Positions 9,001 through 24,000 of a DNA stretch of 64,000 nucleotides are shown one piece after another. Position numbers: made by a program. The number at the start of each line of letters is the position of its first letter. The first letter of the stretch is position 1. The stretch lies in assembly GCA_037379345.1 (NCBI GenBank), contig CM074516.1:24552001-24616000 (forward strand). The letters are read 5' to 3'. Source of the stretch: Perna viridis. Lineage: Eukaryota.

Positions 9001-12000
9001 ATGTACAAATAGATTGACAATTCAAACACCGTTTGAATGTCATCTTTATATTTTTCCAAATTGCTTTTACTGTCTGACAGTACTGCTTAAGGTTACTGTC
9101 GTGATTATAAAAAGTATCCGCAATTTTCAATGACAATGTGATTCAACATGGCTGTGATAGCCGATCAACAGAAGAACTCAATTTTGGACGTTGACATGTC
9201 GTTATGCCTCGACCTATCGGTCTAAACGTGACATTGTCTGTTTCGACTTTCAAACTACCGTGTGTATCTTTATCTTAATTTTTTGATTGTATTGAGACCC
9301 AAGTTTGGCTATCTAATTAATGTCCATTGGACATTATAAGTCAAAAATAGGATGAATGAGTAATGAAAAATAAACTCACCGTTTGCCTTAAAGCTGAATA
9401 AATAGTTATTAATTCTTTAACTGGGTATTATGCAAAGGTCCATAGAATATTAGTTGCTAACTGTTTGTTTTACATTTCGTTTTGGCAGGCCTATTTTTGT
9501 AATTCGTATTCAGAGAGTGCAAAATATAAACACAAACAATAACGATACATTCATTGAAATGAAATTATTGAATTGATTCTTTATCGATGCATTGAACATT
9601 TTACAATACTTCATAAACATGTTTCTTTAAAAAAGAAGTAAATTGGTATTTTTTGTATCTTTGTATCTTAACTCTTTTGTTCCCTTTCCAAAATACCTTA
9701 TTTATCCCCAGTAAAGCAAACTATGTCATAATTGTATAGTTAGAAATTGACAACGTAGTCTACTTTTCGACACGGTTCCATAGTAAACTTTTATTACTTG
9801 CTCTCTATCGTATATATGTTGATCGTTTTTTAATGTAAATATTTATCTGCTGGTCCTCTATGGCAAGAGTTTTATTATCTGACCAACGGCGTATCACTTA
9901 AATCTCGCCATAGTATAATTAAGCACTGAGTTCTATAGGACAGGGAAGAAATTTATCAACAATAACCATGTAAAGGATAAAAGAATTTTCAATATGCAAA
10001 ACTAGTTCGACACTACATTTTATCAGATTTAATGGAGAGTTGCGTTAAATGCTGGCTTTTGTTTTATGGCAAAGAAAATTTAAAGTTTAAACTTTCACAA
10101 ACTTATGCAACATGTACATCAATCTACGACTCAATCGTAAGTTTAGGCATGATCTTGATTTTAAATGCCATGTAACGGAGAACAGTAGGGCTATTATATA
10201 TCATTCATAGAAAGAAGCAAGAGAAACTTTCTTTGCATTGTATGACCTCCCCATTAACATCTTTCCGAAATAACGGTAATTAATAACACAATACATCACC
10301 ACCTTACATCAATACATTACCCTGAAAGAAAAAAAACAAGCTCGATCCTGATATGGATAAAAAAAATTATCATGTTATCATTAAAATCATTGTGTTAAGA
10401 ATGCTGACTTTTTTTTCAACTATGCAAGATAAATGTTTAGTCATTTGACATAGAAGAGGTCCATCTAGTGATTGTTCCCTAGTTTATCAGCTAAATATAA
10501 ACAATATGATGATATCTGTTACAACTACTTATAAAATTATCACAACAAAATGAGACTACGGCCTTAGATAAAACACCTGTAAATTCATTTAACAGATTTT
10601 GTAGGGATGATTTGCAAGTTTCAGGTTTTTTCACTACAGACAATTTATTTTGTGCTTATAACTAACCAAGGTAAGATGTTATCGGCTTTCACAATTTTGC
10701 AGTCATTTGAGATTAAAAATATGTGTGTTTTTACATATTGCTCCAGATATAGCACAAATTCCTTTAAAGAGGCTGGTTTTAAATGTACGAATCCGTAAAG
10801 CATTTGGTCCTTTTTAATAATGTTACGAATTTAGGTTCAATAAAAGCGATGAAGGCCTTGTTTATATTTTATATATCTTTATATGATATACCAAAAAAAA
10901 CGTAACGTCGAATGTTACGTTTAACGATTGGGTATAACGTAAACCAAAGAAATAATAGAAAACTTTATATAGCAGAACATTAAAAACAAATCTATATTAT
11001 TTGGGGATGGAATTGGTTGGTGCCTTCAACTTTAATCAACATCCTCTCTGTTTACAATGCCAACTCAACACTGTTATTACCCGTTTCCAAAAGAAACTGT
11101 AAGGTTGATAAAAATGCTTATTTTACAATTGTGTACAAAGTGGTATTTTTTTTTCTTTTAAGCTTCTTCAAACTACTCAAAAACATGTTGCTTTGGAGAT
11201 CAGTGTCCATTCATATGCAATGATACAAAAATTATTTCAATTACCAACATTGATTACGAAAGAAACTGCAGTTCAAGTTTCTCAAGATGTTCCAAAACGT
11301 GCACTAATGGAAACAGCGAAACGTGTCAGATATTTCGTTTACCACTGTCGTCGAACAACTGGAGGAATCATCTTTATTATTCGGGAATTTCGGGGAGGAA
11401 CAATGGGGATTTTACAGCAGATCGGGCACTTTGTGAAAGATCCCAGATAGCTTCAAATATAGTTCACGTCTCTTATTCTTGCCTTAACGGTAAGTAACGT
11501 TCAAAATTTGATAACAGTATGCGGAGGAATCCTAAATGAAGGGGTCTAAATTGAAATACAATTTTAGTCGAAGATCATGTTATGTATACACTAACAAACG
11601 CGCATGTATGAAAGAGATATAACTACTGGGTATTTAGGTTACAGACCACCAATTCAACCAATGAGCATTTGGAACGTACGCAAAAATAGTCCTACACAGA
11701 AATTATCCCTGTTCCTCATAGTGCTGTGAAAAAAGTTCTCATCTTATTTAAAAAATTTAAACAGTTTCTGAAAGGAAAAACATTTCTGTACATTTTATAG
11801 GCGCATTTTGCTTCTTGTGATGTGAAGCCTAATCTCCATAATGATTTTTAAATATACTCCTATCTTGTGAAAACACTGGGATTTCCCATGCTGTTTATAG
11901 ACACTTCACTTCCGGTGACCAGTACTGCACTGCAAGTCTGCTAACCCCACGTGCTGAGGATTGTGAGCTGACATATGTAGAATCATGCTTATATATAGTC

Positions 12001-21000: not shown

Positions 21001-24000
21001 CCTATTTTGATTATATCCACTTAGTGTTAATGTTCATTAATATTATTTCTACATGCACTTTATGGACAGGGAAAATGTTTTTAGTGTACTTAAACTTCTA
21101 TAACTTTTCTTACTATTCGGAAGTCTTATCTAAGACAAACTCGATCTTCGTTATATGGATGGATCCTAATGATGCAATACATCGTACCATGATCAAAACT
21201 TTCTTAACTAGGGTGTTTCGTTGTACTTAGAACGAAATAGAAATACTTGTTATTTGCCTTCAATTCGCTATATTTAGATATATCAACGGCAGACGTTGTT
21301 ACCATTATAACTACGTGACGAGTATTGCATCTCATCTTCAAAATTCTACATACTAGTATATAACATTATGATTTTTTACACAAATACCAATCTGTTGGAT
21401 TTTCATGAAAAACTGAGGTTAGAGTTTGATCATTTGTAAATTGTGATGGTGTAAACATTTGATGTTGAGTGTTTGTGATTATTAACTTCTTTCTGAATCA
21501 ATGCAAATGTTCATCTAACATTTGACTTTCATAAGTACGACGCATTATAGAGTGTAATTCAATAACGATGTGGACAAGAATATGATATTGATTGTTCGTG
21601 TGTATACAACGGCTGAAAAAGAAATGCAAAATCATGTGGGTTTGTTTTTAATTTGTTTTTATTTTATTTAATTTAATCAAACATGTTTTGTGTATTTGCT
21701 TGTAATCATCTTCAGTTTATAGTGCTGGATGAGTTTGTGCTTTGTTTTAATTGATTTTATAGTTATTATGCTTGCTGTTTTCTTTTTCTTGATTGTTCTT
21801 TGGTGTGACTTTTCATGTTGTATATAACTTATCCGTGTTTCATTTAATTTGGTAAGTAAATGTTTAGTTCTCAATTTGTGCTATACGGTTATTGATTACG
21901 CTTATGAAGTTGATATAGTATAATAACATATGTATGGTCACAAAATGTTCATGAAAGTCTGCAAATGTGTACGTTTAAAAATGTATGTTAATTTTGAAAT
22001 AAAGTATCTTTTTGTCTATATGTTCTTAATGTGCCTCTAAACCATGGTGATTTGTTTCCCTTAAATTGAAATGTATATTTATTTCAAAATACAAAAACGA
22101 AAGAATGAATAAACAGAGACAAAAGAAACCACGAACAGCATACTGAAAAGAGCATTTCAAAATAAAAAAAACAAATTAATATAATTCTAAAACTTATATC
22201 AAATAGGCAACCTCGACCCCAACAATGAAACTAGACGTATGGATTATCTGCTCCGGTAGGGTTGTCATTTGGTTTTGTTTCTGTTGTTTTTTTTGTGTTT
22301 TGTTTTGTATTGTTTGTTTTGTTGTGATATTGTTTTTGTTTTCGTTTTCTTTTTCTGTGTTTTTGTTTGTTTATTTTTTTTTTTCATACAAAAAGAGATA
22401 AACAACGTGCTGAATATTAAACCAATAATTCATGATGGTGTAGAATTGTTTCGAAATGATGACTATGAAGAGATAACTATAATGTTGAGATGGCATAATT
22501 TGTTCAAAATTGTTGTGTCTGTCACAACTACGACAAGCTGTTATACAAGATTAAATTCCAAATCATAAGCATTTGGAATGTTTCAATAATAAAGGGAACT
22601 TAACGTTACGGAATGTTGTCATCAAATTTCTGTTGTCACTTCAAAATTTAAAGATTAGAATTATTCAAGTCGTGCCAAAAGTGAGTCCGGTTTTCATTTC
22701 ACTTTCTGTGCAAAATAACAGTTTTCATAATAAAACTCTTGGGAAGCCATTTCATCACCAACTTTGTATTTCTTTTTTTTTGTGATTTTTTCTTCTGAGG
22801 AGAAATGGCGTAAAATATACTAATTCCACCCCCCAAAAATGTCTTGACTGGCTTTGCTTGGCCTTTAGTTCTATTCACACCTCCCTAACCAGGAATCCTG
22901 GATCCGTTCCCTCTGCATATTGGATATGAATTGTCATTTTACATTGTTTATCCAATAAAGTCATTAGTATTGCGGGAAATTAATCATTAACTGTATGTGT
23001 ATGAAGTGAGAATGGACACGTAGCAGCCATTAAAACTTAAGCAAAATTTGATATAATTTTTGGCATACATATGTTGTGCAGCCCATGGTAAAATAATGAT
23101 AAAGTGAAGTTTCCATAATTCATTTCGATTCTAATAGGACTAGTTTCTTCATGTTTTTTTAATAGACGCAGCCAATGCGTTCCACGAAATGTTGGTCATG
23201 TGTTTATCGCTTTTTGGGTTTTCAATCCTTCAGGATAAAAATACCTTATGTCGCCGGTCCACCACTGGAATTTCCATACTAGTTCTGAACACTACACAAA
23301 AGTATAGTCCAAATGTAATTTCTTTTATATCATTCAATACCTATTTTATAACCAGTAAATATGTTTCTTGCAATTATTCAGCTCAAAAATATTCCTTTAT
23401 TTCTGCAAACAAATTTAATGTCGTCGTTATATCAACTGATAATATTGAGCGGGTCCATTTTGGCATTAAAAGATATTTAGTAATAAATTTGCATTTAGGG
23501 AATTTAGTTATTGCAGCAATGTGCCAAGAAGTATAAAATGTGTTAAGATTGTTCCATTCAACACACTTTTCAGACAAATTTTTCATCATATCATTAATAT
23601 TGTACCATTGATAAACAGGAAGTGAAGAGCAGTGATTTTAACCAAGTAAAATTGGCGGAAAAATTTAAATTGATCCTTTCAAAGTGTCTAGTTTTTTAAA
23701 ATATTCTGTTCACCAACTAAGTTATTTTCTTAAGCTGAAATTAGTTTTATTTGAGTATACTTACAATGTATGATAAACACTCTGTTAATATAGTTTTTGA
23801 ATGTAAATGCAATTAAACTTTTTGACAGATCTAAAAATTTGGAAAAAAGGTGAAATGGAACTAATTTGTAAATGTGTGTGAGGTATGATCAGTAGAATGG
23901 ATGACATTCAGTTTAAACATATTAGGAAAAAACAATTCTTAATGATATGTAATTTATTTTACATCATGTAATCTTTTAAATTTTGTTCATGCTACAATTT

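What the first reader, a model, noticed from the sequence alone, without database searches (positions are those of the whole stretch)
10607..21010. Unannotated lectin/CUB-like receptor with an ITIM-bearing cytoplasmic tail
Seen: six exons, largely missed by the ORF track, splice into a 586-aa type I membrane protein with one module per phase-1 exon. The roughly 230-aa low-structure tail has many tyrosine motifs: VNYSMI and SMYDHV fit the ITIM consensus (S/I/V/L)xYxx(I/V/L); NDYNHL, NKYDHA, NPYVDD and terminal RYDLF are also present. Known: ITIMs recruit SH2-domain phosphatases in inhibitory receptors. Inference: a candidate invertebrate glycan-sensing inhibitory or self-recognition receptor. 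The adjacent segmental duplication may belong to an expanding array of this gene.
Basis: partly seen in the sequence, partly recalled or inferred. Interest (0 to 1): 0.65.

Follow-up and report, generated by a model that had tools for sequence, protein, structure and literature searches.

The report
Orphan single-pass membrane receptor gene
The six exons do fit together into an intact gene for a cell-surface protein with a long tyrosine-bearing tail, but neither the lectin/CUB label nor the inhibitory (ITIM) role is supported beyond chance, and the neighbouring "duplication" is two copies of a retrotransposon.

Summary
Six GT-AG exons on the + strand (10607-21010) sum to 1761 nt, 586 codons plus stop. 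A chain this long was reached by 0 of 600 simulated sequences. Read exon by exon, it encodes a signal-like N-terminus, a 10-Cys module, a 5-Cys module with beta-type periodicity, a Ser/Thr-rich stalk, one transmembrane helix and a tail of about 232 residues with 8 tyrosines.

- No exon matches CUB, any lectin or any other Pfam family at its cut-off, or any PDB chain.
- Two ITIM-consensus fits are not more than chance (P=0.06 by shuffling; 0.61 expected per 223 residues). They lie 73 residues apart.
- A triple Y-[D/N]-H-[L/A/V] cluster is more striking but was noticed after seeing the data (corrected P=0.066).
- The "segmental duplication" is two decayed copies of an Ngaro-like tyrosine-recombinase retrotransposon. 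The window holds no paralogue of the gene.

Best reading: a lineage-restricted receptor-like glycoprotein whose tail docks SH2-type partners. Which partners is open.

The parts
10607..10670 (+). Exon 1: start codon and hydrophobic signal-like N-terminus (21 codons + 1 base); donor AAG|GTAAGA
   Evidence: An alternative, weaker donor after 10784 (also phase 1) was picked by a length-maximising search. The extra stretch has no Pfam match.
11163..11489 (+). Exon 2, phase 1-1: 108-residue module with 10 Cys and 3 N-x-S/T sites; family unknown
   Evidence: Pfam: 0 families at E<=10. Best PDB E-value 0.55. Its open frame ranks 30 of 8279. Recovered exactly by the chain search.
16945..17313 (+). Exon 3, phase 1-1: 122-residue module with 5 Cys, 4 N-x-S/T sites and beta-type hydrophobic periodicity; family unknown
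   Evidence: z=2.2. Pfam gives only A_amylase_dom_C, E 0.054, below cut-off. PDB: 0 hits at E<=10. Recovered exactly by the chain search.
18366..18575 (+). Exon 4, phase 1-1: Ser/Thr-rich (41%) stalk with 1 Cys; the least secure exon
   Evidence: A second open frame overlaps it. The codon score favours the model's frame: 0.019 against -0.275 and -0.732.
19787..19904 (+). Exon 5, phase 1-2: acidic juxtamembrane stretch, TM helix, basic stop-transfer stretch; weak donor AAG|GTAGAG
   Evidence: If intron 5 stays in, the frame ends one codon later, which would give a tail-less form.
19813..19881 (+). Transmembrane segment (23 residues, no charged residue)
20338..21010 (+). Exon 6: 223-residue cytoplasmic tail with 8 Tyr, then the stop codon
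   Evidence: Its open frame ranks 6 of 8279. Disorder side of charge-hydropathy, with alpha-type periodicity z=2.2. No Pfam family at cut-off and 0 PDB hits.
20489..20506 (+). VNYSMI: fits the ITIM consensus and YxxPhi
20594..20611 (+). NDYNHL: first of three Y-[D/N]-H-[L/A/V] motifs
20657..20674 (+). NKYDHA: second Y-[D/N]-H-[L/A/V] motif
20708..20725 (+). SMYDHV: third Y-[D/N]-H-[L/A/V] motif. It fits both the ITIM consensus and YDxV.
   Evidence: The YDxV pattern is from passages of PMC3507883 and PMC11247170.
20840..20857 (+). NPYVDD
20993..21007 (+). C-terminal RYDLF (YxxPhi at the very end)
14101..15860 (+). Not part of the gene product: a decayed repeat with long open-frame pieces inside intron 2. 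Calling it retroelement-like is by eye only.
   Evidence: Further copies or pieces lie elsewhere in the window. No Pfam or PDB match.
1..5806 (+). Not part of the gene: Ngaro-like tyrosine-recombinase retrotransposon, copy A. It is cut by the window edge and truncated at its 3' side. This is one arm of the 'segmental duplication'.
25341..31135 (+). Not part of the gene: Ngaro-like retrotransposon, copy B (the other arm). The start is as far as copy A allows comparison. The end is the end of the hydrolase-like ORF.
   Evidence: RVT_1 9.5e-11; RT_RNaseH 0.002; Phage_integrase 0.0023; Lipase_GDSL_2 5.2e-07.

Best explanation
An intact six-exon gene encodes a lineage-restricted, single-pass type I membrane glycoprotein. 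In order it has a signal peptide, two disulfide-rich extracellular modules of unrecognised family (one exon each), a Ser/Thr-rich stalk, a TM helix, and a largely disordered cytoplasmic tail of about 232 residues with 8 tyrosines. The most likely working is that of a receptor or adhesion scaffold. The ectodomain binds an unknown ligand. Tail tyrosines, above all the cluster of three Y-[D/N]-H-[L/A/V] motifs 21 and 17 residues apart, are phosphorylated and dock SH2-type partners. Shown: the exon structure, the open frames, the topology features and the motifs. Inferred: expression, ligand binding, phosphorylation and which partner docks.
For: Gene:
- Canonical splice sites at the edges of long open frames, with all five phases compatible.
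- Open-frame ranks 102, 30, 20, 49, 450 and 6 of 8279.
- 0 of 600 simulations reach the model's length.
- The in-frame codon scores of exons 2-6 exceed all 140 intron windows. This is partly circular, because stop codons are penalised.

Topology:
- TM segment KD19 2.98; 8 N-x-S/T sites and 16 Cys in exons 2-4; a basic stretch after the TM.
- Exons 2 and 3 fall on the folded side of charge-hydropathy, exons 4 and 6 on the disorder side.

Tail:
- 8 Tyr. Three share His at +2 and Asp/Asn at +1 without any flanking similarity: 18-20 of 45 bases identical, and no internal repeat (69 of 300 shuffles reach the observed score).
- Y[DN]x[VLIA] is found 3 times per 197 Tyr in other open frames, against 3 of 8 Tyr here (the pattern was chosen after seeing the data).

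Precedents seen as passages: the DCBLD1/2 scaffold receptors with YxxP motifs (PMC6029619), CDCP1 (PMC7893822) and nephrin's three YDxV motifs 17 and 24 residues apart (PMC11247170).
Against: - There are no transcripts, no homologues and no fold model, so expression and conservation are untested.
- The motif statistics are weak once corrected. The strongest single-position enrichment around Tyr is reached by 328 of 5000 composition-preserving shuffles.
- Tyr content is ordinary (8 of 223).
- Exon 4's frame and exon 1's donor have alternatives.
- The tail is joined to the rest through the weakest donor. Read-through would give a tail-less protein.
- The ectodomain modules match no known ligand-binding family.
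Confidence: 0.5

Rival explanations
1. One reading: an ITIM-type inhibitory (or self-recognition) receptor. Phosphorylated VNYSMI and SMYDHV would recruit SH2-domain phosphatases of the SHP/SHIP type and damp activating signals.
For: - Both motifs fit S/I/V/L-x-Y-x-x-I/V/L (consensus as in a passage of PMC8631942).
- The TM has no charged residue, so there is no sign of pairing with an ITAM adaptor (the rule itself is recalled).
- ITIM-bearing type I receptors exist in invertebrates: oyster CgNCAM1 binds CgSHIP2 (PMC11841013 passages), and Botryllus FcoR (PMC12582321 passages).
Against: - Two fits are near chance: P=0.061; 0.61 expected per 223 residues, and 3 of 34 control peptides have at least 2 fits.
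- The two tyrosines are 73 residues apart, against 25 in PD-1 and BTLA.
- There is no ITSM and no ITAM.
- There is no Ig-type ectodomain.
- There is no paralogue or gene cluster in the window. The invertebrate allorecognition receptors are described as linked multigene families.
Confidence: 0.15
2. An adhesion or engulfment-type receptor coupled to actin. The three clustered Y-[D/N]-H-[L/A/V] motifs would act like nephrin's three YDxV motifs and recruit an Nck/Dock-type SH2-SH3 adaptor multivalently.
For: - YDHV is an exact YDxV; YDHA and YNHL are near fits. The spacing of 21 and 17 residues resembles nephrin's 17 and 24 (the YDxV-Nck link is from passages of PMC3507883).
- In 34 other open frames YDxV occurs 0 times and Y[DN]x[VLIA] 3 times per 197 Tyr.
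Against: - The pattern was chosen after seeing the data. The corrected shuffle test gives 0.066.
- Only 1 of 3 motifs is an exact fit.
- His at +2 has no known role that I could find or recall.
- There are no Ig/FN3 domains as in nephrin.
Confidence: 0.12
3. A mucin-like surface glycoprotein or endocytic receptor without phosphotyrosine signalling. The tyrosines would be YxxPhi sorting signals or have no role.
For: - Four YxxPhi fits, including one at the C-terminus.
- A Ser/Thr-rich stalk and many N-glycosylation sites.
- All motif counts are compatible with chance after correction.
Against: - YxxPhi is not enriched either (4 against 1.85, P=0.085).
- A 223-residue open frame ranking 6 of 8279 is long for a mere sorting tail.
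- That YxxPhi is an adaptor-binding sorting signal is recalled, not from a call.
Confidence: 0.15
4. The model is partly wrong or the gene is dead. Exon 6 may belong to another transcript, which would leave a tail-less membrane protein. Or the locus may be an untranscribed or decaying lineage-specific gene among transposons.
For: - The exon 5 donor is the weakest (AAG|GTAGAG), and read-through stops one codon later.
- There are alternative sites for exons 1, 4 and 6.
- The gene sits among transposon copies, and its introns 2 and 3 carry repeat pieces.
- There is no family match for any exon.
Against: - All six frames are open, with 5 of 5 compatible phases and no stop in any split codon.
- Exon 6 opens right at an acceptor-like site with 10 of 12 pyrimidines.
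- As listed by the ORF tool, the exon 6 frame starts only at an internal TTG.
Confidence: 0.12

Closest known systems
DCBLD1/DCBLD2 (ESDN) scaffold receptors
   Same: Type I membrane proteins with modular ectodomains and a long intracellular region. Their repeated tyrosine motifs dock an SH2 adaptor (PMC6029619, passages).
   Different: Their motif is YxxP, and 0 of the 8 tail tyrosines here have Pro at +3. Their CUB, LCCL and FV/VIII domains are recognisable families, while no Pfam family matches here.
CDCP1 (CUB domain-containing protein 1)
   Same: Signal peptide, CUB-type modules, TM, Cys at the membrane edge, and a tail whose tyrosines dock Src and then PKC-delta (PMC7893822, figure legend passages).
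   Different: No CUB match here by Pfam or PDB sequence search. The motifs and tail length differ. No homology is shown.
Nephrin cytoplasmic YDxV cluster
   Same: Three clustered tyrosine motifs 17-24 residues apart in a disordered tail (PMC11247170 passages). Here there are three Y-[D/N]-H-[L/A/V] motifs 21 and 17 residues apart.
   Different: Only one exact YDxV here. The ectodomain is unrelated (no Ig or FN3).
Invertebrate ITIM-bearing receptors (oyster CgNCAM1; Botryllus FcoR)
   Same: Type I receptors with tails carrying ITIM-consensus motifs (PMC11841013; PMC12582321).
   Different: Those are Ig-superfamily members. The FcoR genes lie in polymorphic multigene clusters. CgNCAM1 has measured SHIP2 binding. 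Here there is no Ig domain, no paralogue in the window and no functional data.
Rhamnose-binding (SUEL-type) lectin domain, as a lead for exon 2
   Same: About 100 residues, Cys-rich, with a Y-x-R after a hydrophobic strand-like stretch and a C-terminal Cys. This is a resemblance by eye. The family features are from PMC10817417 passages.
   Different: YGR, DPC and KYL: 0 of 3 present as such (YER instead of YGR). 10 Cys, not 8. No Pfam Gal_Lectin hit at E<=10.
Ngaro-like tyrosine-recombinase retrotransposons (for the duplicated flanks)
   Same: RT/RNase H, then a tyrosine recombinase, then a GDSL/SGNH-type hydrolase ORF, in that order (order as in PMC9210276 passages).
   Different: No split direct repeats were found. 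Both copies are decayed.

Membership tests
ITIM-bearing inhibitory receptor | S/I/V/L-x-Y-x-x-I/V/L in the cytoplasmic tail | tested here: met
   2 fits. Not above chance: P=0.061; 0.61 expected per 223 residues.
ITIM-bearing inhibitory receptor | Paired motifs at a spacing that suits tandem SH2 domains (25 residues in PD-1 and BTLA) | tested here: not met
   The tyrosines are 73 residues apart. The paper's supplementary file 4, with spacings in other receptors, could not be seen.
ITIM-bearing inhibitory receptor | Motifs conserved in homologues; phosphorylation; phosphatase recruitment | not testable with these tools
There are no expression or phosphorylation data.
Allorecognition-type receptor family | Linked multigene family (PMC12582321 passage) | tested here: not met
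   tblastn of the 6 exon peptides against the window: no non-self hit below E=0.16. Only 64 kb could be examined.
CUB domain (PF00431) | Match to the family profile | tested here: not met
   Exon 3 peptide: CUB is not listed even at E<=10. 0 PDB chains at E<=10.
CUB domain (PF00431) | Beta-sandwich fold with two disulfides (PMC9848320 passages) | tested here: inconclusive
   Beta-type periodicity z=2.2. 5 Cys. Structure prediction was never completed.
Rhamnose-binding / SUEL lectin domain | YGR, DPC and KYL motifs and eight conserved Cys (PMC10817417) | tested here: not met
   0 of 3 motifs as such. 10 Cys. No Pfam hit.
C-type lectin and other lectin families in Pfam | Match to a family profile | tested here: not met
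   Exon 2 peptide: 0 families at E<=10.
DCBLD-type scaffold receptor | Multiple intracellular YxxP motifs | tested here: not met
   0 of 8 tyrosines have Pro at +3.
Nephrin-type YDxV cluster | Three YDxV motifs | tested here: inconclusive
   1 exact (YDHV) and 2 near fits (YDHA, YNHL).
Ngaro-like retrotransposon (flanking repeats) | RT/RNase H + tyrosine recombinase + hydrolase ORF after the recombinase | tested here: met
   RVT_1 42.2 bits, above its cut-off of 29.6. The other three are below their cut-offs but in the expected order: RT_RNaseH 18.7/24.8, Phage_integrase 18.2/27.1, Lipase_GDSL_2 30.8/32.9.
Ngaro-like retrotransposon (flanking repeats) | Split direct repeats (A1 ... B1 A2 B2) | tested here: inconclusive
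   None found in 24500-33020 or 25000-32000. The true 5' end of copy B is not known.

The most novel reading that the evidence does not exclude
A taxonomically restricted receptor built from two extracellular folds that belong to no described family. It would be coupled to a so far undescribed triple phosphotyrosine docking motif, Y-[D/N]-H-hydrophobic, that serves inhibitory or self/non-self signalling in an invertebrate.
Probability: 0.08. Interest if true: 0.6.

Novelty: new member of a known kind. Interest (0 to 1): 0.3.

Why it matters
If transcribed, this is one more lineage-restricted single-pass receptor with a tyrosine-motif tail. Invertebrate genomes hold many of these, and very few are understood. 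Its value would lie in two things. First, its two ectodomain modules escape every sequence profile tried here. Second, it has a clustered Y-[D/N]-H motif that could be followed across relatives. As it stands, the practical result is mostly corrective. The ITIM label rests on a degenerate consensus at chance level. The lectin/CUB label is untested at the fold level. The "expanding array" is a pair of retrotransposon copies.

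Tried and rejected
- Pfam on each exon peptide at E<=10 gave nothing at cut-off. The best sub-threshold rows are unrelated families, e.g. FhbB E 0.0016 for exon 6 and prok_STING E 0.012 for exon 4.
- PDB sequence search with exons 2, 3 and 6: best E 0.55, 0 hits and 0 hits.
Two accepted jobs (56, 57) failed (67, 69), so fold search was never run.
- Scans of prokaryotic genome contigs with exons 3 and 2 found 88 and 201 pattern matches and 0 relatives. 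This was expected for an animal gene.
- Weak tblastn hits of exon 2 at 4933-5025 and 30100-30213 (E 0.3-0.44) lie in the recombinase ORF of the retrotransposon, so I rejected them as chance.
- Exons 2 and 3 show no similarity to each other.
- No internal repeat in the tail.
- Alternative open frames over exons 2 and 4 have no Pfam match.
- Rfam and tRNA scans found nothing. The only sub-threshold row in the gene span is a TA microsatellite.
- Pfam on all 50 other open frames of at least 65 codons found no CUB- or lectin-type exon of the candidate's kind.
- Keyword searches found no paper on such a protein. Papers cannot be searched by sequence.

Full report
**Scope and limits.** I searched the spliced model exon by exon. 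The joined 586-residue protein was never built or searched, so that step is left out. The window does not look human to me: GC is 0.29-0.37 throughout, and it holds an Ngaro-like retrotransposon and invertebrate-style repeats. Nothing was treated as human. The N run at 33026-33195 was left alone. The protein atlas could not read the sequences. Conservation, expression and fold therefore all stayed unchecked.

**The observation.**
- All five introns are GT-AG.
- The lengths sum to 1761 nt, which is 586 codons plus stop.
- Incoming phases are 0, 1, 1, 1, 1, 2. Exons 2-4 are phase 1-1, but the last junction is phase 2, not 1.
- No split codon is a stop.
- The ORF list holds in-frame pieces of exons 1, 3, 4 and 6 and misses exons 2 and 5 in frame.

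**Is the gene more than chance?** Yes.
- The stop-to-stop open frames that hold the exons rank 102, 30, 20, 49, 450 and 6 of 8279 in the window.
- The donors are AAG|GTAAGA, ACG|GTAAGT, AAT|GTAAGT, CAA|GTATGT and AAG|GTAGAG. GTAAG occurs only 46 times on the + strand.
- I ran a length-maximising search for chains of at most six exons with permissive splice rules. It finds 2316 nt in the real stretch, or 2052 nt with the repeats blanked.
- 0 of 600 first-order Markov simulations reach the model's 1761 nt (mean 1106, max 1500). The minus strand of the same stretch gives 954.
- That search picks the same ATG, exons 2 and 3 exactly, the same exon 5 donor and the same last frame.

The search also shows where the model is soft:
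- There is a weaker exon 1 donor after 10784.
- There is a second open frame over exon 4.
- There is an acceptor at 20313.
- The tail hangs on the weakest donor. If intron 5 is retained, the frame ends one codon later, giving a tail-less form.

**Anatomy, exon by exon**.
- Exon 1 is a hydrophobic N-terminus that looks like a signal peptide.
- Exon 2 is a 108-residue module with 10 Cys and 3 N-x-S/T sites.
- Exon 3 is a 122-residue module with 5 Cys, 4 N-x-S/T sites and beta-type hydrophobic periodicity (z=2.2).
- Exon 4 is a stalk with 41% Ser+Thr and one Cys. That brings exons 2-4 to 16 Cys in all.
- Exon 5 has an acidic stretch, a 23-residue uncharged TM segment (19813-19881, KD19 2.98) and a basic stretch.
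- Exon 6 is a 223-residue tail with 8 Tyr. It falls on the disorder side of a crude charge-hydropathy test, but has some alpha-type periodicity (z=2.2).

This fits a type I orientation by the positive-inside rule, which I recall rather than take from a call. That phase 1-1 exons typify shuffled extracellular modules is also recalled.

**Domain identity.**
- No exon peptide reaches the cut-off of any Pfam family, even with E up to 10. Neither CUB nor any lectin family is listed.
- PDB sequence searches give a best E of 0.55 for exon 2, and 0 hits each for exons 3 and 6.
- By eye, exon 3's Cys spacing recalls CUB, and exon 2 recalls the rhamnose-binding/SUEL lectin domain. These are resemblances from memory, not tests.
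- The SUEL features given in PMC10817417 (passages) are YGR, DPC, KYL and eight Cys. Exon 2 has YER, no DPC, no KYL and 10 Cys.
- CUB is a beta-sandwich with two disulfides (PMC9848320 passages). Only the beta periodicity speaks for it here.
- 'Lectin/CUB-like' is therefore unsupported by sequence and untested by fold.

**The tail motifs.**
- The ITIM consensus (as in a passage of PMC8631942) is fitted twice. The mean is 0.41 in 20000 shuffles, P=0.061.
- In 34 other open frames of at least 100 codons in the window there are 15 fits per 197 Tyr, which is 0.61 per 223 residues. 3 of those 34 peptides have at least 2 fits.
- The two tyrosines are 73 residues apart, whereas PD-1 and BTLA have 25. 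That paper's supplementary table of other spacings could not be seen.
- There is no ITSM, ITAM, NPxY or YxN, and no YxxP.
- YxxPhi is fitted 4 times against 1.85 expected, P=0.085.
- The more striking feature is three Y-[D/N]-H-[L/A/V] motifs at exon-6 residues 88, 109 and 126. There is no flanking similarity (18-20 of 45 bases) and no internal repeat (69 of 300 shuffles reach the observed score).
- I chose that pattern after seeing it. A shuffle test over all offsets and residues gives 328 of 5000, or 0.066.
- Against other open frames, Y[DN]x[VLIA] is 3 per 197 Tyr, against 3 of 8 Tyr here.

**Surroundings.**
- The 'adjacent segmental duplication' is 1-5806 against 25341-30937, about 97% identical.
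- Its ORFs match RVT_1 (9.5e-11), RT_RNaseH (0.002), Phage_integrase (0.0023) and Lipase_GDSL_2 (5.2e-07), in that order. This is the layout of Ngaro-like tyrosine-recombinase retrotransposons (PMC9210276 passages).
- I found no split direct repeats.
- Neither copy is intact. The coding part is spread over 11 (copy A) and 10 (copy B) open frames of at least 85 codons on the + strand.
- The two copies differ by 107 mismatches and 20 gaps in 5609 columns. 17 of those gaps are not multiples of three.

Rough lower bounds on the breaks, from the ORF pieces. Some frame changes may be natural, because ORFs of such elements overlap.

| Gene | Copy A | Copy B |
|---|---|---|
| gag-like | at least 1 break | at least 1 break |
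| RT/RNase H | at least 2 breaks | at least 1 break |
| recombinase | at least 1 break | at least 1 break |
| hydrolase | truncated at its 3' side | apparently whole |

I could not split these into stops and frameshifts without an intact reference.

- Copy A is also cut by the window edge. It ends where a piece of another repeat begins.
- That other repeat fills part of intron 2 (14101-15860). It has no Pfam or PDB match, and its roughly 150-230-nt tail recurs in introns 2 and 3.
- No exon has a paralogue in the window. The best non-self tblastn E is 0.16.
- None of the 50 other open frames of at least 65 codons carries a CUB or a lectin domain of the candidate's kind.

**How it most likely works.** I commit to a receptor or adhesion scaffold. 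The glycosylated, disulfide-rich ectodomain binds an unknown ligand. Tail tyrosines are phosphorylated and dock SH2-type partners. My confidence is about 0.8 that the gene is real and about 0.5 for the whole statement.

Which partner docks is open:
- a phosphatase, the ITIM reading (0.15);
- an Nck-type adaptor through YDxV-like motifs, as in nephrin, whose three motifs are 17 and 24 residues apart (0.12; PMC11247170 passages; PMC3507883 passages);
- sorting signals only, or no role (0.15);
- a partly wrong or dead model (0.12).

**Comparison with what is known.** It works like the known single-pass tyrosine-motif receptors:
- DCBLD1/2 (PMC6029619 passages);
- CDCP1 (PMC7893822 passages);
- oyster CgNCAM1 (PMC11841013 passages);
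- Botryllus FcoR (PMC12582321 passages).

It meets the membership tests of none of them. Keyword searches found no description of such a protein, but papers cannot be searched by sequence.

**Verdict.** This is a real-looking orphan receptor gene, a new member of a known kind. The ITIM, lectin/CUB and gene-array claims are not supported by what could be tested.

Noticed in passing
window 42696-43670 (-): The longest open frame of the window (325 codons; ORF of 307 aa). It is rich in S/T/N/Q/P, with no Pfam family at E<=0.01 and no PDB match better than E 0.22. It is probably a large exon of an unrelated gene.
   Followed up: partly
window 47353-47547 (-): An open frame matching the CCDC174 GRSR domain (Pfam 1.8e-16), so a CCDC174-like gene lies on the minus strand. 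Whether the 325-codon frame downstream belongs to it was not examined.
   Followed up: no
window 37057-37281 (+): An exon of a Tctex-1-type dynein light chain (Pfam 2.2e-08; PDB 5jpw_A 4.6e-20).
   Followed up: partly
window 39906-40253 (-): A weak galectin-like signal (Gal-bind_lectin E 0.0012, 18.7 bits against a cut-off of 22.1), but 0 PDB hits at E<=1. It may be chance. It is unrelated to the candidate gene.
   Followed up: partly
window 59921-60427 (-): A caveolin exon (Pfam Caveolin 1.6e-18).
   Followed up: no
window 52387-53466 (-): A Tc1/mariner-type transposase in two pieces (HTH_Tnp_Tc3_2 2.2e-12; DDE_3 5.7e-10).
   Followed up: no
window 6100-7850 (+): An A-rich stretch (AT skew 0.27) whose short open frames look by eye like a decayed LINE. 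The only Pfam sign is RVT_1 at E 0.087.
   Followed up: partly
window 627-1055 and 25972-26398: The 5' part of both Ngaro-like copies shares about 430 nt (74% identity) with the 3' part of the intron-2 repeat. The relation between the two repeat families is unexplained.
   Followed up: no
window 62816-63034: A short third fragment, about 88-91% identical to part of the recombinase region of the Ngaro-like copies.
   Followed up: no
window 48829-49377: A tandem array of a 46-nt unit, 11.9 copies, 89% matches.
   Followed up: no
window 12279-12490 (+) and 12905-13125 (-): Two copies of the repeat tail in inverted orientation inside intron 2.
   Followed up: no
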